Positions 1 through 7,469 of a stretch of DNA of 7,905 bases are shown piece by piece. The stretch is from positions 1 to 7,905 of the IMG/VR virus record IMGVR_UViG_2713896795_000006; one strand, given 5' to 3'. The notes under the pieces are model-generated. The model made no database searches. It saw nothing but the letters and a program-made list of their open reading frames with translations, and was not told where the DNA came from. Both the position numbers and the translations under genes were made by a program. The stretch is from a virus (lineage: Duplodnaviria; Heunggongvirae; Uroviricota; Caudoviricetes). Within the stretch, counting starts at the first letter, position 1. The number at the start of each line of letters is the position of its first letter.

Positions 1-1131
1 TCAAATGACCAGTTTTTTCCACTCCTTGCCGCGTGCATCGTTGTAAATATCGGTCATTTTTTGATTCGAATGACCCAGCAAAATTTGGGTATCAATTCCC
101 TGCTCTCTGAACAATCGCTCTGATAAAGATCTCTGCTCATGGAAAGAGGGTGGGGTGCCATTAGCACGCCAGTTGTAATCCACAGAATCCCGCGCTTTTT
201 TAAATGCAACGGTTAACGTTGCTGGCTTAACCATCCCGCCGCGCTTAGCTGTCCCTTTCGCGTGATGATGGTGCAATAGCCACGGACTAAGAACGCAATC
301 GCGACAGGATGACACCACATCATCCAGGGTGAGATTTAATTTATCGCAACGCAGAGCCAGAGGGATGGCAATCCGGGTTCCTGTTTTTTGCTGTTCGACA
401 TGAAGATAACCATCCCGGATATCCGAAAATTGCATTTTGCAAATATCTGAAAGGCGCTGGCCTGTCATCAGTGCCAGCAGCATACCGCGCTGTAAAAAGT
501 AACCATCCTTTTCCGCTGCGTTATAAATCATCGTCCACTCATCAAAAGTCAGTCGCTGTCTTGATATCCGCACCTGTGGTTTTTTTGCCGATTCTGCAGG
601 GTTAAAGCCTGGCGGGACATCGCCCGTTTGCTGAGCCTCCCGGAAAACATCGATCAGTACCTTCCTGAAAATTTGTCCCATTCTGTTATGTCCTCTGGAC
701 TTGTACTCTTCCAGCACCGATACCACATCCTTTACGGTTATGGCATCTAACGGTCTGGTGCCAAAACGTTCATCAAAAACCCTGAGAGGGGCCGCTTTCT
801 GTTTCAGCGTGTTGAGTTTGATTTCTCCGTTTTCATATCTTTCCTGTTGAATTTTTCTGTAATTATTCAGAAAAATGGAAACGGTTGATGAACCGCCGGT
901 ATCATTAATAATTTTCTCCTGCAGACTGAGCATTTGCTCCATTTGTTGTCTGGCAAGACGGCTGTTCGCTTCTGCTGCAATGGTTTCCGCCAGTTTCTGG
1001 TCAATACTGCCGAGTCCATGATTTTTACCTGTGATGGGATGCCTGTAACGCCAGTAAACTTTGTTATTTCTTTTGTCAAAATACGGAGATAATCCCGGAA
1101 CAGCGGTTTTATATTTTCGCGGGCGTGCCAT
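1..1131 (-). CDS. int: Phage tyrosine integrase (lambda Int-like), 376 aa, complete; stop codon at window positions 1-3
   Basis: ORF track 1..1131 (-). C-terminus ...LLGHSNQKMTDIYNDARGKEWKKLVI closely parallels the lambda Int C-terminus (LLGH...Y..DRG.EW) carrying the catalytic Tyr. N-terminus MARPRKYK...KVYWRYRHPITGK resembles the arm-binding domain of lambda-family integrases. SD-like AGAGGA about 9 nt upstream of the ATG at 1131. The 5' end overlaps the upstream excisionase gene by 23 nt, the typical xis-int arrangement. Confidence 0.9.
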   Translation of the reverse strand: MARPRKYKTAVPGLSPYFDKRNNKVYWRYRHPITGKNHGLGSIDQKLAETIAAEANSRLARQQMEQMLSLQEKIINDTGGSSTVSIFLNNYRKIQQERYENGEIKLNTLKQKAAPLRVFDERFGTRPLDAITVKDVVSVLEEYKSRGHNRMGQIFRKVLIDVFREAQQTGDVPPGFNPAESAKKPQVRISRQRLTFDEWTMIYNAAEKDGYFLQRGMLLALMTGQRLSDICKMQFSDIRDGYLHVEQQKTGTRIAIPLALRCDKLNLTLDDVVSSCRDCVLSPWLLHHHHAKGTAKRGGMVKPATLTVAFKKARDSVDYNWRANGTPPSFHEQRSLSERLFREQGIDTQILLGHSNQKMTDIYNDARGKEWKKLVI

Positions 1132-1357
1132 CTTCCAGTATCCTCTTTAAAGCAGGGTGATCTGTGGCGATCACCTCCGGCTTGTTTACCATTCCGACAA
1201 AGCGAGCTCGCGGATCCACTCGCCAGTGTCTTCCAACTTTTTTGGGGAGAGGAAATATCATTCCGGCTTTAGCGTATTTACTTAACGTGCCCGGAGTAGG
1301 GACCGGATCGCTGAATTCCTCTTTTGCCCACTCAGTGAGCAGAATAAGTCTTGCCAT
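1109..1357 (-). CDS. xis: Excisionase (lambda Xis-like), 82 aa
   Basis: ORF track 1109..1357 (-). N-terminal segment LILLTEWAKEE...GMIFPLPKKVGRHWRV aligns by eye with lambda Xis (LTLQEWNARQ...CRIFPPPVKDGREY). Sits immediately upstream of and overlapping int. No strong SD before the ATG at 1357, so the start is slightly uncertain. Confidence 0.75.
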   Translation of the reverse strand: MARLILLTEWAKEEFSDPVPTPGTLSKYAKAGMIFPLPKKVGRHWRVDPRARFVGMVNKPEVIATDHPALKRILEDGTPAKI

Positions 1358-1420
1358 GAGTATCGTTCGCTAATCATGGTCGCCGCCACTATAGCTGGGG
1401 GCGACGACCGGGGTTGAACA

Positions 1421-3892
1421 TTAAAAATCAGACTGATTCGGGATCAGTTTTTGCCAGATTGCTGAAACGTATTTCGCCTGGTGACGGGCATCATCCAGCG
1501 CATTGTGGCGTATGCCTTCGAATTGAATAGGCGTCCTGGCATCGAAGTCTATGGATTTTCCCAGTTCAATGATTGTGCGTACATCGCGATCGTTGTAGTA
1601 GCGCCACGGGCAGGGGATACCCTGCCGTTCATATGAACGGCGTAAAATCACGTTGTCGAAGTTGGCTCCATTTCCCCAGACCTGAACAAAAAATTCACCG
1701 GAGTTTTCGTCGATAAATTCCCGCAATTGCAGTAGTGCATCATCTAACGGAATTTCATCGGTCAGAATGGCAGATTGCGCCTCACGTGATTGCTTCAGCC
1801 ACCATTTAATGACGTCACGATCAATGACTCCGCCAGCAGTATCCAGATCGATGGTCTTGCTAAATTCCGGTCCCATATCTCCGGTTTGTGGATCGAAAAA
1901 TATTGCGCCTATTGAGATAATCGGGGCATCGGGATTTTTTCCCATGGTTTCAAGGTCGATCATCAGATGAATCCCCGCTCTGCTGGTGGATGTGAGTTTA
2001 TGATGACCGTTCACCTCAATTAAGGGATCTGTCGCCTCGCCAGTTTTATTATCGCTGGCGTGATGCTGATTGCCGCCAGGGTTCTCCTTGTGTGGATGTT
2101 CAGCGCCTTCCATTTCCTCCGGATCATTTTCCTGAACTTCAACCTGATTCTCTTCATCGAATGTTTCCTGGTATGTTGCGTCGCCCATCACCGCGCCACA
2201 ATCAGGGCAGTTGCCGCCACAGCTCTGACCGCAGGCGGTGCAGACTTTTTCCGGTTCCTGTTGCGCTACTGGTTCGGATTGTTTCGTTTCTGGCTCGTTT
2301 TGTAACGCATTTGGGCTGTTTTGTTCCGCTTTTTGGTCGTTCTGTTCCGATTCTTGCTGGTTCTGGTTTACAGAATCGCGGGTTTCAATCCCCTTCACCC
2401 ATTTCGGATCATTCGGGTCGCTAATCCCTGCAACAAATTCTCCGCGAGAGGCAGCAAGCAACTTATCGGCGTCAGGCTGGCTGATATTGGCTGCCTGCAT
2501 AATTTTGTTTACTTCTTCAGCGGTAACTTTTACCGGCTCTGGTTGTGCGGTCGTGTCAGATGCACCAGTATTTTGTTGTGAGCCTGAGTATGTACCGTTT
2601 TTGCGGGCAAAATATTCTTCTTTCGTGATTTCAGTAGCCCCTGCAGTCAGCGCCTTATTCAGACCAGAAAGTTTGTTTGCACGACCATATTTTTCGCCAT
2701 CTTTATCTGTGAAGAGGAAGTAGAACGGCCCCTCACGCTCTACAGATGGTTCGACTTCCACTTTGCATTCGGTTTTTTCGTTGTCCGGAATTGCCGTTTC
2801 CACTGCATCAGTTTCTGGTACTGGCGACGAGAGAGTATCAGTTGCGCTCTGATTTGTTCCTTCATCTTCAAACACGCCCTTTGTAGTCAGGTATTCAGTA
2901 ATGTATTTGTTCAGTGCCACAGGGTCTTTGTGAATGTCGATCGGACGTTCACGGACAAGGCCAAAAATAGTCTGGCGGTCGTAGCGAAGGGCATCAGGCT
3001 GTTTGCGCATTGATGCCGAGATACGCTTCCAGTCTTCGCGGTCGTTGTCGATAACTTCATTTTTTGCCCAGCGATGGATGCTGCCGTCAATGTTTCCGGC
3101 ATCAATGTCATCAGGCCACAGAGCGTAGGCCAGTTCATCATCCAGTGTTTTCCATGTCTGCTTGTATTCGCGACGAATGGTGGCAGTGGCTGGGGGGATT
3201 TTCGCTACTGAGTTTTCAGTGTTCTGCCGGTTGACTCTGGCGCGGGCAAGATCAACAACAGACATGTATTTCCCGGTTTCTTTGCGTTCGGCTTCGCGAC
3301 GTTTTTTCCAGGTGCGTAATTCTGTCTGGATCTCAGGCCATTTTGCACCCGGCTTACATTTATGTTTAACCCACCCGATGGCGAGCAGCTTAAGCTCTGA
3401 ATACATGACGTTAACTTCAGGCATTTTCATCAATGCCTCAACGATATGCCCATCGAATGTTGCCATGTCTTCCTGCAGTAATTCCTGAGCACTAATCACC
3501 ATATCAACGGTGATGTTTTCACATGTACCGAACTTAACCAGGACCGCGTTCTGTACTTCAAGGGACAGCTTGTCAAAATTGACGTTCATCGGATCGGATT
3601 CTGGTTCGACCGGAATAAAGGAAGCGGATTCCTCATCCCAGCGGTTTTCCTGCATATATTCGGTATCCCAGGAGTCGATAGCAGGGCGGGGCATGCCGGG
3701 TTTATCCTCGCAGACAAGAAATTTATAAGCGCAGTCCTGAGCAGCCGGATATTGCTCCAGGAATTGCCAGGTAAATTTGGCACGGGCGCGGCGTTCGTCA
3801 CCGGCTTCAATGGCAGTGGCTACAGCAACTGCACCTTCTTCCTTTATTGCCTGTTCGTCCGGAATGGCGGCGCAAATAAAGACTTTACTCAT
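1421..3892 (-). CDS. Large prophage exonuclease, 823 aa: C-terminal DnaQ/Orn-like DEDDh 3'-5' exonuclease domain, Cys-rich zinc-knuckle, acidic Q/E/N-rich linker; commonly annotated in prophages as exodeoxyribonuclease VIII-like
   Basis: ORF track 1421..3892 (-). The C-terminal about 190 aa carry the three DEDDh motifs: motif I LMIDLETMG, motif II VWGNGANFDNVIL (Orn-like GNSxxxD), motif III IRHNALDDARHQAKY (Orn-like HxALDD...Y). Upstream are a Cys cluster CTACGQSCGGNCPDCG and a low-complexity acidic stretch (NQNQQESEQNDQKAEQNSP...EPETKQSEPVAQQEPEK). It sits between xis and the dicB-like module, where lambda has exo/bet and Rac has recE/recT. SD GAGG about 10 nt upstream of the ATG at 3892. 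Confidence 0.8.
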   Translation of the reverse strand: MSKVFICAAIPDEQAIKEEGAVAVATAIEAGDERRARAKFTWQFLEQYPAAQDCAYKFLVCEDKPGMPRPAIDSWDTEYMQENRWDEESASFIPVEPESDPMNVNFDKLSLEVQNAVLVKFGTCENITVDMVISAQELLQEDMATFDGHIVEALMKMPEVNVMYSELKLLAIGWVKHKCKPGAKWPEIQTELRTWKKRREAERKETGKYMSVVDLARARVNRQNTENSVAKIPPATATIRREYKQTWKTLDDELAYALWPDDIDAGNIDGSIHRWAKNEVIDNDREDWKRISASMRKQPDALRYDRQTIFGLVRERPIDIHKDPVALNKYITEYLTTKGVFEDEGTNQSATDTLSSPVPETDAVETAIPDNEKTECKVEVEPSVEREGPFYFLFTDKDGEKYGRANKLSGLNKALTAGATEITKEEYFARKNGTYSGSQQNTGASDTTAQPEPVKVTAEEVNKIMQAANISQPDADKLLAASRGEFVAGISDPNDPKWVKGIETRDSVNQNQQESEQNDQKAEQNSPNALQNEPETKQSEPVAQQEPEKVCTACGQSCGGNCPDCGAVMGDATYQETFDEENQVEVQENDPEEMEGAEHPHKENPGGNQHHASDNKTGEATDPLIEVNGHHKLTSTSRAGIHLMIDLETMGKNPDAPIISIGAIFFDPQTGDMGPEFSKTIDLDTAGGVIDRDVIKWWLKQSREAQSAILTDEIPLDDALLQLREFIDENSGEFFVQVWGNGANFDNVILRRSYERQGIPCPWRYYNDRDVRTIIELGKSIDFDARTPIQFEGIRHNALDDARHQAKYVSAIWQKLIPNQSDF

Positions 3893-5671: not shown

Positions 5672-5699
5672 AGTTTAATAAACATTAAACATAAGTCAA
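5672..5699 (-). promoter_or_regulatory. Candidate early-left promoter (PL-like) for the ydfA-ydfB-dicF-dicB operon: -35 TTGACT (plus 5694-5699), 16-bp spacer, -10 TAAACT (plus 5672-5677)
   Basis: Minus-strand hexamers are identical to those of the candidate rightward promoter at 6687-6716. An operator-like motif AAAACTAAAC at 5703-5712 resembles the AAACACTAAAC repeats in the divergent region. Sequence-based prediction only. Confidence 0.4.
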
Positions 5700-5722
5700 G
5701 CAAAAACTAAACCACAGAGCAC

Positions 5723-5761
5723 AACAACCGCAACGCTTTTGATAAAGTCGTTGCGGTTGTT
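5723..5761 (-). terminator. Strong hairpin 22 nt downstream of the parE2-like stop; probable terminator or insulator of the repressor-antitoxin-toxin operon
   Basis: Perfect 13-bp stem AACAACCGCAACG (5723-5735) with CGTTGCGGTTGTT (5749-5761), loop 5736-5748, extendable by CTTT/AAAG with one bulge. Flanking U-rich stretches on both strands are imperfect, so this may act as a weak or bidirectional terminator. Confidence 0.45.
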
Positions 5762-5783
5762 ATGTTTCTATTGGTGGTGAAAG

Positions 5784-6275: not shown

Positions 6276-6647
6276 TCAGGCGCGGCGGCATTTTTGCGCC
6301 GCAATCCATCTCGCTATGAGATCTTCCATTGATTCTTTTTTCTGTTTTAACTCGCTGATTATCTGGCGTTGCTCATCCTCAGGGAAGGCTGAAAAAATCT
6401 GCAATAATTCCAGTTGATTAGACGTTAATCCTGCATGCGGTGGAGAAACCTCTGGTTGTTCTGCGTATTCCGCATCCAGATACCCCTCCGGCATCCCGTA
6501 TGTTTGCTCTATTCTTCTGGCTGCCTTTTCTCCAAACGAGGCTCTCCCACTCATTAGCTGAGATAGGTAGCTCTTCTCTTTGGGTGGCAGAGTTTTATCT
6601 TTAAACCACTCCTTGAGACGTAAACGGCGAATTTCTTTTTTTTGCAT
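6276..6647 (-). CDS. paaR2: HTH (XRE/cI-like) transcriptional repressor lacking a peptidase domain, 123 aa (PaaR2-like; C-terminal region DicA-like)
   Basis: ATG at 6647 within ORF-track ORF 6276..6710 (the track start at 6710 is GTG). N-terminal HTH-like segment KSYLSQLMSGRASFGEKAARRIEQTYGMPEGYLD. C-terminal LTSNQLELLQIFSAFPEDEQRQIISELK resembles the DicA C-terminus (LSPKELELLELFNALPESEQ...). No SD before the ATG, and a -10-like GATAAT lies 7 nt upstream, consistent with a leaderless, cI-like transcript. First gene of the three-gene operon. Confidence 0.8.
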   Translation of the reverse strand: MQKKEIRRLRLKEWFKDKTLPPKEKSYLSQLMSGRASFGEKAARRIEQTYGMPEGYLDAEYAEQPEVSPPHAGLTSNQLELLQIFSAFPEDEQRQIISELKQKKESMEDLIARWIAAQKCRRA

Positions 6648-6744
6648 GTGGTAATTATCTTTAGTAATCACTAAACAAGCAAATACTTGACTTAATGGTT
6701 TATTAAACACTAAACTTGCAAAAAAACACTAAACCGAGGAAGGT
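6648..6744. promoter_or_regulatory. Divergent promoter/operator region between the repressor and the cro-like gene: three direct repeats AA(A/T)CACTAAAC, candidate PR (-35 TTGACT 6687-6692, -10 TAAACT 6711-6716) and candidate leaderless PRM-like promoter (minus strand; -35 TTGCTT = plus 6677-6682, -10 GATAAT = plus 6654-6659)
   Basis: CACTAAAC occurs at 6669-6676, 6708-6715 and 6727-6734 (spacings 39 and 19 bp); the second copy overlaps the PR -10 and the third the predicted start region. The 97-bp AT-rich interval lies between divergently oriented regulator genes. Sequence-based prediction only. Confidence 0.5.
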
Positions 6745-7047
6745 ATGACATTAAAAGAGTTTATTAAATCATTGAGGGTTGGTGATGCCAAGAAATTCGC
6801 GGCCAGACTTGGTGTATCGCCATCTTACCTATCGCAAATGGCGTCTGGACGAGCAGCGATATCTCCAACCCGCGCCCTTATGATCGAATCTGCGACGGAA
6901 GGCCAAGTAAGTAGGGCGGAGCTACGGCCCCATGATTGGGAGATTATTTGGCCTGAGTATGCGCGCGGTATTCGTTTGGGGCAAACGCATGTAGCTCATG
7001 CTGAAGGTGATTGTAGTGCATGCTTATCTGATGGAGTTGATTCATGA
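6745..7047 (+). CDS. ydaS: Cro-like HTH regulator, YdaS family, 100 aa
   Basis: ORF track 6745..7047 (+). Strong SD GAGGAAGG 4 nt upstream. Segment LGVSPSYLSQMASGRAAISPTRALMIESATEGQVSRAELRP matches the YdaS-type HTH pattern (LGVSP...P...IE.AT.G.V....LRP). Stop overlaps the next gene start (ATGA). Confidence 0.85.
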   Translation: MTLKEFIKSLRVGDAKKFAARLGVSPSYLSQMASGRAAISPTRALMIESATEGQVSRAELRPHDWEIIWPEYARGIRLGQTHVAHAEGDCSACLSDGVDS

Positions 7048-7469
7048 AAATCAAGCATGAACACATCCGCATGGCGATGAATGCCTGGGCGCATCCGGAC
7101 GGCGAGAAAGTTCCGGCTGCAGAGATTACCAAAGCGTATTTTGAACTGGGAATGACGTTTCCGGAACTGTACGACGATTCACACCCAGAAGCCCTGGCTC
7201 GCAATACTCAGAAGATTTTCCGCTGGGTGGAGAAAGATACTCCTGATGCGGTTAAAAAAATTCAGGCGTTGTTACCAGCGATCGAAAAGGCAATGCCGCC
7301 ACCGCTGGTGGCCCGAATGCGTAGTCACAGTTCGGAGTATCACCGGGAGATTGTCGAGCGACGGGATCGGCTGGTGAAAGATATCGATGAGTTCGTTGCA
7401 TCAGCGATCGTTCTGTTCGACCAGATGAATCGCGGTGGTCCGGCAGGAAATGCCGTGGCGGTGCATTGA
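7044..7469 (+). CDS. ydaT: YdaT-family protein, 141 aa (putative CII-like regulator or toxic protein of Rac-type prophages)
   Basis: ORF track 7044..7469 (+). N-terminal MKIKHEHI... is characteristic of YdaT as recalled. Start codon overlaps the ydaS stop (ATGA), indicating translational coupling. Confidence 0.8.
   Translation: MKIKHEHIRMAMNAWAHPDGEKVPAAEITKAYFELGMTFPELYDDSHPEALARNTQKIFRWVEKDTPDAVKKIQALLPAIEKAMPPPLVARMRSHSSEYHREIVERRDRLVKDIDEFVASAIVLFDQMNRGGPAGNAVAVH

What the first reader, a model, noticed from the sequence alone, without database searches (positions are those of the whole stretch)
6648..6744. Compact divergent switch region with a triple AA(A/T)CACTAAAC repeat and a probably leaderless repressor gene
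The 97 bp between the repressor start (6647, minus) and the cro-like start (6745, plus) contain three direct copies of CACTAAAC (6669, 6708, 6727). One overlaps the predicted PR -10 (TAAACT) and one the predicted transcript start. The repressor ATG has no SD and sits 7 nt downstream of a GATAAT -10 with a TTGCTT -35 at 17 bp, implying a leaderless mRNA like lambda cI from PRM. The repeats are direct rather than the inverted half-sites typical of cI/Cro operators, which suggests a different binding geometry.
Basis: seen in the sequence. Interest (0 to 1): 0.5.

Follow-up and report, generated by a model that had tools for sequence, protein, structure and literature searches.

The report
Published CP-933P prophage PaaR2/YdaS switch
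This 97-bp stretch is the on/off switch of a common E. coli prophage (CP-933P type) whose leaderless repressor gene and protein-binding repeats were mapped experimentally in 2021, so the finding is a correct rediscovery, not something new.

Summary
The three CACTAAAC copies are real (6669, 6708, 6727; none of 200 shuffles reached 3). The region is already characterised. The 97-bp spacer differs by one base (T6717 for C) from the paaR2–ydaS intergenic region of an E. coli O157:H7 prophage. Jurenas et al. (mBio 2021, PMC8630535) studied that region in CP-933P. They mapped both transcript starts by 5' RACE. N-terminal sequencing (MQKKE) showed that paaR2 is translated without a leader. EMSA and DNase I footprints showed PaaR2 and YdaS binding.

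The claim "direct rather than inverted" is not. Copies 1 and 2 are the right halves of 18-bp inverted repeats, CTTTAGTAATCACTAAAC (6659-6676) and GTTTATTAAACACTAAAC (6698-6715), each 13/14 to GTTTAGT-N4-ACTAAAC. Only copy 3 lacks a partner.

In 64 related loci from other genera, the conserved features are the two inverted repeats (37-39 bp apart in 37 loci) and the leaderless layout (32 loci). The same-orientation look is specific to this lineage: the 18-mer at 6698-6715 lies flipped relative to 10 relatives, and copy 3 is degenerate or reoriented in the closer relatives.

Verdict: already known, low interest.

The parts
6276..6647 (-). paaR2, the CI-like repressor (123 aa, MQKKE...). It has an N-terminal HTH domain and no S24 peptidase domain. 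It is the first gene of the paaR2-paaA2-parE2 operon and is translated from a leaderless mRNA.
   Evidence: 121 of 123 residues match the PaaR2 of O157:H7 strain TR01. It matches PDB 7NKV/8C3K 'Phage repressor protein CI' at E=1e-39. The N-terminus MQKKE was determined experimentally (PMC8630535). It has no Pfam hit.
6654..6682 (-). PRM-type promoter: -35 TTGCTT (6682-6677), 17-bp spacer, -10 GATAAT (6659-6654). The A of the ATG at 6647 lies 7 nt after the -10 and serves as both transcript start and start codon.
   Evidence: Read from the sequence. 5' RACE on 96/97-identical DNA placed the start on the start codon. The same layout occurs in 32 of 64 related loci. The consensus scan did not call it, because the -35 matches TTGACA at only 3 of 6 positions.
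6659..6676 (.). IR1 operator, CTTTAGTAATCACTAAAC. It fills the PRM spacer.
   Evidence: 13/14 match to GTTTAGT-N4-ACTAAAC. It is conserved at -29..-12 from the ATG across genera. The paper's IR1 overlaps PRM933P.
6679..6696 (.). IR2, a degenerate unit. Only a right half TGACTTAAT is recognisable. It overlaps the PR -35 and is centred about 40 bp upstream of the PRM start.
   Evidence: Read from the sequence. The paper describes IR2 as lacking its left half. The coordinates are my inference from the 19-20 bp spacing.
6687..6716 (+). PR-type promoter: TTGACT, 18-bp spacer, TAAACT. It drives ydaS-ydaT.
   Evidence: Promoter scan. The paper states that PL933P has the same hexamers as PR933P, and the PL site in this window also reads TTGACT/TAAACT.
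6698..6715 (.). IR3 operator, GTTTATTAAACACTAAAC. It covers the PR spacer and -10. Its right half is repeat copy 2.
   Evidence: 13/14 match. The same 18-mer occurs in 10 relatives at the equivalent place but on the other strand.
6717..6734 (.). IR4, a half-site-only unit, TGCAAAAAAACACTAAAC, covering the start of the PR transcript. Its right half is repeat copy 3.
   Evidence: It is degenerate (GGCTAGT) in an 89%-identical relative, reoriented in a 66%-identical one, and no counterpart is seen upstream of the distal repeat in most distant relatives.
6745..7047 (+). ydaS, the Cro-like HTH regulator, with the SD-like GAGGAAGG at 6735-6742.
   Evidence: Pfam YdaS_toxin E=3e-12 and HTH_3. PDB 8C7K 'Phage antirepressor protein Cro' E=2e-61. 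96 of 100 residues match the O157 protein.
5672..5712 (-). PL/OL-type region. The promoter is TTGACT (5699-5694), 16-bp spacer, TAAACT (5677-5672). It carries the 18-bp repeat GTTTAATAAACATTAAAC (5673-5690) and a half-site ACTAAAC (5706-5712).
   Evidence: PL933P with OL1-3, repressed by PaaR2 and YdaS, is described.
7037..7054 (.). YdaT (CII-like) box, TTGATTCATGAAAATCAA, at the ydaS/ydaT junction.
   Evidence: Exact match to the published TTGATT-N6-AATCAA (PMC9986795).

Best explanation
The region is the OR-type operator/promoter block of a CP-933P/Sp12-type lambdoid prophage. Two back-to-back sigma-70 promoters share one set of operators. PRM runs leftward into paaR2-paaA2-parE2. PR runs rightward into ydaS-ydaT.

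The operators are 18-bp dyad sites, GTTTAGT-N4-ACTAAAC, of the kind bound by dimeric HTH proteins. IR1 sits in the PRM spacer. IR3 sits over the PR spacer and -10. Two weaker, half-site-only units (IR2, IR4) complete a row of four sites spaced 19-20 bp apart.

PaaR2, the CI analogue, is reported to form octamers. It protects about 78 bp, which is roughly the 76 bp from IR1 to IR4. It shuts PR and PL, stimulates PRM at low levels and represses it at higher levels. YdaS, the Cro analogue, binds the same DNA with the opposite preference, PRM first. The result is a bistable switch.

The paaR2 mRNA starts at the A of its ATG, so the repressor is translated without a leader or SD, like lambda cI from PRM.

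What is shown: the published experiments on 96/97-identical DNA, the sequence anatomy, and the family-wide conservation found here. What is inferred: the coordinates I assign to the paper's IR1-IR4, one PaaR2 dimer per unit, and activation through a dimer at the IR2 position (about -40).
For: Identity with the published system:
- The intergenic DNA matches O157:H7 at 96 of 97 bp. The single change lies outside the hexamers and repeats.
- PaaR2 matches at 121/123 residues, YdaS at 96/100 and YdaT at 127/141.

Published experiments:
- 5' RACE, N-terminal sequencing and mass spectrometry for the leaderless start.
- EMSA and DNase I footprints: PaaR2 protects about 78 bp, YdaS protects 27 + 32 bp.
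- gfp fusions for PR, PRM, PL and PRE, and the reported PaaR2 octamerisation.

- Three 18-bp dyad sites with 2 or fewer mismatches, against 0.01 expected.
- Gene content paaR2, PaaA2, ParE, YdaS and YdaT.
- PDB matches for the PaaR2 N-terminal domain and for YdaS.
- The N-terminal HTH domain (residues 1-58) is 60-85% identical to that of S24-type CI/LexA-like repressors.
- 59 of 64 related loci have at least one such dyad site upstream, and 48 have at least two. The two promoter-proximal sites are 37-39 bp apart in 37 loci.
- 32 loci have a -10-like hexamer ending 7 nt before the ATG and no SD.
Against: - No experiment was done on this exact sequence. T6717 lies immediately 3' of the PR -10 and could change PR strength.
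- The paper states that the precise bases contacted by PaaR2 and YdaS are not yet determined, and that direct repeats might also be used.
- IR2 and IR4 lack a left half, so a dimer there would rely on cooperativity.
- The PRM -35 TTGCTT is weak, and the consensus scan did not call this promoter.
- My mapping of the paper's IR1-IR4 onto coordinates comes from its text. The figures were not available.
Confidence: 0.9

Rival explanations
1. One reading: the functional units are three or four same-orientation (direct) repeats. PaaR2 and/or YdaS bind them head-to-tail along one face of the helix, a geometry unlike that of the dyad operators of lambda.
For: - Three exact same-strand 8-mers and a 24-nt direct repeat, 6660-6683 versus 6699-6722, at 83% identity.
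- The 19-20 bp phasing is about two helical turns.
- IR4 and IR2 have only the same-strand half.
- PaaR2 is reported to form octamers.
Against: - Copies 1 and 2 each have an inverted partner and match the dyad consensus at 13/14.
- In relatives with a nearly identical HTH domain, the dyad is conserved and the direct pattern is not.
- The stronger half of the PR-proximal site lies on either strand, depending on lineage. The exact 18-mer is reverse-complemented in 10 loci.
- Copy 3 is GGCTAGT in an 89%-identical relative and appears in the opposite orientation in a 66%-identical one.
Confidence: 0.08
2. The repressor starts at the upstream GTG (6710), giving a 144-aa protein. On this reading the 'intergenic' repeats are coding sequence, as some database entries annotate.
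For: The mechanical ORF list gives GTG 6710 as the first start. Database clusters of 144-150 aa exist (P0001, P0002).
Against: - The N-terminal sequence MQKKE and the intact mass were measured.
- Family alignments begin at this Met.
- In relatives the upstream stretch is conserved as promoter/operator DNA, not as protein.
- A start at 6710 would overlap PR and leave only 34 bp before the ydaS start.
Confidence: 0.02

Closest known systems
PRM933P/PR933P operator region of cryptic prophage CP-933P (Sp12) of E. coli O157:H7 (Jurenas et al., mBio 2021, PMC8630535)
   Same: - 96 of 97 bp are identical to the paaR2-ydaS intergenic region of an O157:H7 strain (TR01). The paper studied CP-933P of strain EDL933.
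- The gene order is the same: parE2-paaA2-paaR2 divergent from ydaS-ydaT.
- The same PL/OL region and the same YdaT box are present.
- The repressor start is leaderless.
- Four 18-bp repeats with half-site GTTTAGTAA are present.
   Different: - One base differs (T6717 here, C in O157), just after the PR -10.
- There are a few amino-acid changes. PaaR2 has EV for GG at residues 66-67, outside the HTH domain. YdaT matches at 127/141 residues.
- The best complete E. coli genome match over 1.9 kb is 97.4%, so the window comes from a different strain or variant prophage.
Bacteriophage lambda OR (PRM/PR, CI/Cro)
   Same: - Divergent promoters share the operators.
- The repressor mRNA from PRM is leaderless.
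- The repressor activates its own promoter at low level and represses it at higher level.
- The Cro-like protein binds with the opposite site preference.
- A distant OL/PL exists, and a CII-like activator acts on a PRE-like promoter.
   Different: - Four 18-bp units spaced 19-20 bp apart, against three lambda operators (described as 18-bp palindromes in PMC8630535).
- Two of the units are half-sites only.
- PaaR2 lacks the S24 autocleavage domain and is not SOS-inducible (no Pfam hit).
- The rexAB position is occupied by a ParE-type toxin-antitoxin pair.
[quoted passage not shown]
S24-peptidase CI/LexA-like prophage repressors of Serratia, Yersinia, Erwinia, Proteus and Burkholderiales that share the PaaR2 N-terminal domain (found here)
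   Same: - The HTH domain is 60-85% identical.
- They have the same GTTTAGT-N4-ACTAAAC dyad sites at about -29 and -67 from the ATG.
- They have the same TTGCTT -35 and the same leaderless layout.
   Different: - They carry a C-terminal PF00717 domain in place of the short PaaR2 C-terminal domain.
- They usually have two dyad sites, and no IR4-like unit is seen upstream of the distal one.
- The PR-proximal site is often in the opposite orientation.
Rac prophage racR / ydaS-ydaT region of E. coli K-12
   Same: It has the same position in a Rac-like prophage, YdaS/YdaT-family genes, and a nearly identical YdaT box.
   Different: RacR is a different repressor. According to the paper, CP-933P YdaS and YdaT are only 26% and 31% identical to the Rac proteins. 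YdaT binds inside the Rac intergenic region but not in that of CP-933P.

Membership tests
CP-933P/Sp12-type PaaR2-YdaS immunity switch | A paaR2-paaA2-parE2 operon divergent from ydaS-ydaT, with a 97-bp spacer. | tested here: met
   ORFs and Pfam hits PaaA2, ParE_toxin, YdaS_toxin and YdaT_toxin. The spacer is 6648-6744, which is 97 bp.
CP-933P/Sp12-type PaaR2-YdaS immunity switch | Sequence identity of the spacer and regulators with the O157:H7 element. | tested here: met
   96/97 bp are identical. PaaR2 matches at 121/123 residues, YdaS at 96/100 and YdaT at 127/141.
CP-933P/Sp12-type PaaR2-YdaS immunity switch | Four equally spaced 18-bp repeats with half-site GTTTAGTAA. IR1 and IR3 are palindromic. 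IR2 and IR4 lack the left half. | tested here: met
   IR1 (6659-6676) and IR3 (6698-6715) each match at 13/14. IR2 (about 6679-6696) and IR4 (6717-6734) have right halves only. The starts are 19-20 bp apart.
CP-933P/Sp12-type PaaR2-YdaS immunity switch | The transcript start of paaR2 coincides with its start codon. | not testable with these tools
   The sequence signature is present: GATAAT ends 7 nt before the ATG and there is no SD. The experiment was published for 96/97-identical DNA.
CP-933P/Sp12-type PaaR2-YdaS immunity switch | PaaR2 and YdaS bind the spacer. | not testable with these tools
   Published EMSA and DNase I footprints. All operator bases here are identical to those of the O157 sequence.
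CP-933P/Sp12-type PaaR2-YdaS immunity switch | A second operator/promoter (PL/OL) beyond parE2, and a YdaT box at the ydaS/ydaT junction. | tested here: met
   5672-5712 and 7037-7054.
Lambda-type CI/Cro switch (strict family membership) | A repressor with an N-terminal HTH domain and a C-terminal S24 autocleavage domain. | tested here: not met
   PaaR2 is 123 aa and has no PF00717 hit. Homologues that share its N-terminal domain do carry PF00717.
Lambda-type CI/Cro switch (strict family membership) | Divergent PRM/PR with shared dyad operators and a leaderless repressor mRNA. | tested here: met
   with experimental support.
   Two of the three units are 13/14 dyads. Relatives conserve the dyads, while the orientation of the stronger half varies and copy 3 is not conserved.

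The most novel reading that the evidence does not exclude
The same-orientation layout may be a lineage-specific adaptation and not an accident. It consists of strong halves all on one strand, a flipped PR-proximal site, and the extra half-site units IR2 and IR4 at 19-20 bp phasing. It would have arisen when the S24 domain was replaced by the short oligomerising PaaR2 C-terminal domain. One octamer would then lie along one face of about 76 bp, with some dimers touching only a half-site.
Probability: 0.15. Interest if true: 0.4.

Novelty: already known. Interest (0 to 1): 0.12.

Why it matters
For the scan, it matters mainly as a calibration point. A reader using sequence alone correctly recovered a leaderless repressor and the operator repeats of a switch that has been dissected experimentally.

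The element itself is common. 593 of 5426 complete E. coli genomes carry the 201-bp core at 95% identity or more. It controls a ParE-type toxin-antitoxin pair in O157:H7 prophages.

The modest new content comes from the comparison made here. The operator dyad and the leaderless layout are shared by a wide family of repressors in Gamma- and Betaproteobacteria. Many of these repressors are S24-type and therefore probably inducible. Operator predictions could be transferred to them, and over-long start-codon annotations could be corrected.

Tried and rejected
- Reading the repeats as purely direct units was rejected, because the dyad partners are present and conserved.
- The GTG 6710 start from the mechanical ORF list was rejected on the published N-terminal sequence and the family alignment.
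- Supplementary Table S1 of the paper (promoter sequences) is held only as a caption, so the published hexamers could not be read directly. I relied instead on the paper's statement that PL and PR share hexamers, and on the matching TTGACT/TAAACT pairs in the window.
- The control region for dyad sites (400-560 nt into or after the repressor gene) was not clean. 10 of 64 loci had hits there, possibly OL-type sites after short repressor genes. The chance expectation is therefore taken from Markov simulations of the window.
- Literature searches found no open paper with a PaaR2-DNA or YdaS-DNA structure. PDB entries exist (7NKV, 8C3K, 8C3L, 8C7K, 8CO2), but no paper describing them turned up in the library.
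- One literature search failed because a term was too short.

Full report
**1. What is in the sequence**

The 8-mer CACTAAAC occurs three times in the window, all on the + strand, at 6669, 6708 and 6727. The expected count is 0.14, and none of 200 dinucleotide-preserving shuffles reached three. Extended, the copies read AATCACTAAAC, AAACACTAAAC and AAACACTAAAC.

A minus-strand gene has its ATG at 6647 (MQKKEIRR...). A plus-strand gene has its ATG at 6745 (MTLKEF...). They are 97 bp apart.

On the minus strand the order is TTGCTT (6682-6677), 17 bp, GATAAT (6659-6654), TACCAC, ATG. No Shine-Dalgarno motif is present. On the plus strand the consensus scan finds TTGACT-18-TAAACT at 6687-6716.

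**2.

The repeat finder shows that copies 1 and 2 belong to longer units. These are TTTAGTAATCACTAAACAAGCAAA (6660-6683) and TTTATTAAACACTAAACTTGCAAA (6699-6722), which are 83% identical. The two units are also related as inverted repeats.

Each CACTAAAC has an inverted partner 4 bp to its left. The sites are CTTTAGT-AATC-ACTAAAC (6659-6676) and GTTTATT-AAAC-ACTAAAC (6698-6715), each 13/14 to GTTTAGT-N4-ACTAAAC. With 2 or fewer mismatches the window holds three such sites: these two and 5673-5690. The expectation from 300 first-order Markov simulations is 0.01.

Copy 3 (6727-6734) has no left partner. A degenerate unit, TGACTTAAT at about 6688-6696 (read from the sequence), fills the 39-bp gap between copies 1 and 2. 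The result is four units whose starts are 19-20 bp apart.

**3. Identity of the locus**

Pfam identifies the neighbouring genes as PaaA2, ParE toxin, YdaS and YdaT. The repressor matches PDB chains 7NKV/8C3K, named 'Phage repressor protein CI', at E=1e-39. The YdaS-like protein matches 8C7K, 'Phage antirepressor protein Cro', at E=2e-61.

A 201-bp core of the switch is present at 95% identity or more in 593 of 5426 complete E. coli genomes, including many O157:H7 strains. It is also present in Escherichia phage Evi.

I aligned the window with O157:H7 strain TR01. The 97-bp spacer differs at one base: T6717 here, C in O157, immediately 3' of the PR -10. PaaR2 matches at 121/123 residues, YdaS at 96/100 and YdaT at 127/141.

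**4. What is already published**

Jurenas et al. (mBio 2021, PMC8630535) studied exactly this 97-bp region in prophage CP-933P of strain EDL933.

- *Leaderless start.* 5' RACE placed the PRM933P start on the paaR2 start codon. N-terminal sequencing gave MQKKE, and the intact mass agreed. The authors draw the comparison with lambda cI explicitly.
- *Binding.* EMSA and DNase I footprinting showed that PaaR2 protects about 78 bp, and YdaS protects 27 + 32 bp. YdaS fills PRM first.
[quoted passage not shown] IR1 lies on PRM and IR3 on PR. IR2 and IR4 lack the left half. They also describe three pseudosymmetrical 'OR1-3' units, and remark that both direct and inverted repeats might be used.
- *Other promoters.* They found PL933P, with OL1-3 and hexamers identical to those of PR, repressed by both proteins. 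PaaR2 is reported to form octamers. A PRE-like promoter is activated by YdaT.
- *YdaT site.* A later paper defined it as TTGATT-N6-AATCAA (PMC9986795).

All of these elements are present in the window. PL/OL lies at 5672-5712. The YdaT box lies at 7037-7054. The span from the start of IR1 to the end of IR4 is 76 bp, which fits the 78-bp PaaR2 footprint. That fit is my inference.

**5. Comparative test of 'direct versus inverted'**

The first 58 residues of PaaR2, the HTH domain, are 60-85% identical to the N-termini of about 212-aa repressors that carry an S24 peptidase domain. These come from Serratia, Yersinia, Erwinia and other genera.

A scan of species-representative genomes returned 65 loci, and I analysed 64 of them. 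Anchored on the repressor ATG, more than 30 loci from Enterobacterales and Burkholderiales share one layout:

- a dyad site at about -67;
- GTCAAG, the complement of the PR -35;
- TTGCTT;
- a dyad site at -29..-12;
- a -10-like hexamer (CAAAAT, CACAAT or TAAACT) ending at -7;
- six bases, then ATG.

The counts are as follows.

| Feature | Loci (of 64) |
|---|---|
| At least one dyad site (3 or fewer of 14 mismatches) within 160 bp upstream | 59 |
| At least two such sites | 48 |
| Two promoter-proximal sites 37-39 bp apart | 37 |
| Leaderless signature (-10-like hexamer ending 7 nt before the ATG, no SD) | 32 |

Photorhabdus and Xenorhabdus loci have the same block about 48 nt further upstream. 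Pasteurellaceae and Orbaceae loci have a short leader, several with a GGAG-type SD motif. So the leaderless layout is frequent but not universal.

The direct-repeat appearance is not conserved.

- In 10 loci the PR-proximal site is the exact 18-mer GTTTATTAAACACTAAAC read on the repressor-sense strand. In the window the same 18-mer reads on the opposite strand.
- In a 75%-identical E. coli relative the stronger half is again on the other side.
- In an 89%-identical relative copy 3 is GGCTAGT.
- In a 66%-identical relative the half-site at that place points the other way.

A site that works in either orientation is what a symmetric dimer would recognise.

**6. Mechanism**

The most likely mechanism is the published one. 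It is a lambda-like bistable switch in which PaaR2 (CI analogue) and YdaS (Cro analogue) compete for shared dyad operators that overlap PRM and PR. PL/OL provides a second operator set, and YdaT provides a CII-like input.

The steps shown by experiment elsewhere are the transcript starts, leaderless translation, the footprints and the reporter responses.

The steps I infer are these: one PaaR2 dimer per 18-bp unit; weak units filled by cooperativity within the octamer; and activation of PRM by a dimer at the IR2 position, whose centre is about 40 bp upstream of the start. That position is reminiscent of the site from which CI at OR2 activates lambda PRM.

**7. Rivals**

The direct-repeat model keeps a small probability. 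The exact contacts are not published, and two units are half-sites. The alternative GTG 6710 start is excluded by the published N-terminal sequence and by the family alignment.

**8. Verdict**

The leaderless and promoter interpretation is correct but already demonstrated. The inference of a different binding geometry is not supported. Novelty: already known. Interest is low.

The only new content here is the family-wide conservation of the dyad operator and the leaderless layout, and the lineage-specific flip of the PR-proximal site.

Noticed in passing
window 5672-5712: A PL/OL-type region lies downstream of parE2. The promoter on the minus strand is TTGACT-16-TAAACT, the same hexamers as PR. 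It carries the 18-bp dyad GTTTAATAAACATTAAAC (5673-5690) and a half-site ACTAAAC (5706-5712). This matches the published PL933P/OL1-3.
   Followed up: partly
window 5720-5765 (minus strand RNA): A long perfect hairpin (ACAACAACCGCAACG...CGTTGCGGTTGTTGT) lies just after the parE2 stop and is followed by UUUAGUUUUU. The folding energy is -36.2 kcal/mol with a z-score of -6.8. It is probably the terminator of the paaR2-paaA2-parE2 operon, placed between that operon and PL.
   Followed up: partly
window 7037-7054: The exact YdaT box TTGATTCATGAAAATCAA spans the ydaS stop and the ydaT start. It is the published OM site of the CII-like activator.
   Followed up: yes
window 6648-6710; proteins P0001, P0002, P0004, P0005: Because the gene is leaderless, gene callers extend it upstream: GTG 6710 here, and 130-150-aa database entries elsewhere. 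These N-termini run through the operators and are very likely mis-annotations.
   Followed up: partly
window 6637-6649 and 6714-6726: A 13-nt inverted repeat, TTTTTTTGCATGT / ACTTGCAAAAAAA, is 92% complementary. Each arm lies over or next to a transcript start (the PRM start at 6647; the predicted PR start near 6723) and reads TGCAAAAAAA on its own strand. The T6717 variant improves the match relative to O157. Its meaning is unknown.
   Followed up: no
L020, L021, L023, L025-L028, L030, L036, L056 (about -67 from the repressor ATG; -94 from the tblastn match start in L056) versus window 6698-6715: The PR-proximal 18-mer GTTTATTAAACACTAAAC is identical in these distant genera but sits on the opposite strand relative to the promoters. 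The operator is flipped in the CP-933P lineage. One Gilliamella locus (L041) shares the window's orientation.
   Followed up: partly
L002, L003, L005-L010, L017 (Xenorhabdus and Photorhabdus): The same promoter/operator block lies about 48 nt (about 79 nt in L003) further from the repressor ATG, which implies a leader in these genera. No clear SD is visible in several of them.
   Followed up: no
window 1-3892: The left part of the window has a Rac-like layout: an integrase (1-1131, minus), an excisionase-like ORF (1109-1357, minus) and an 823-aa ORF (1421-3892, minus). An exonuclease pseudogene is annotated at the left edge of the O157:H7 locus L001 fetched for comparison, beyond the dicB/ydfC/ydfD genes. 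These calls rest on reading the ORFs and that record's annotation, and were not checked by searches.
   Followed up: no
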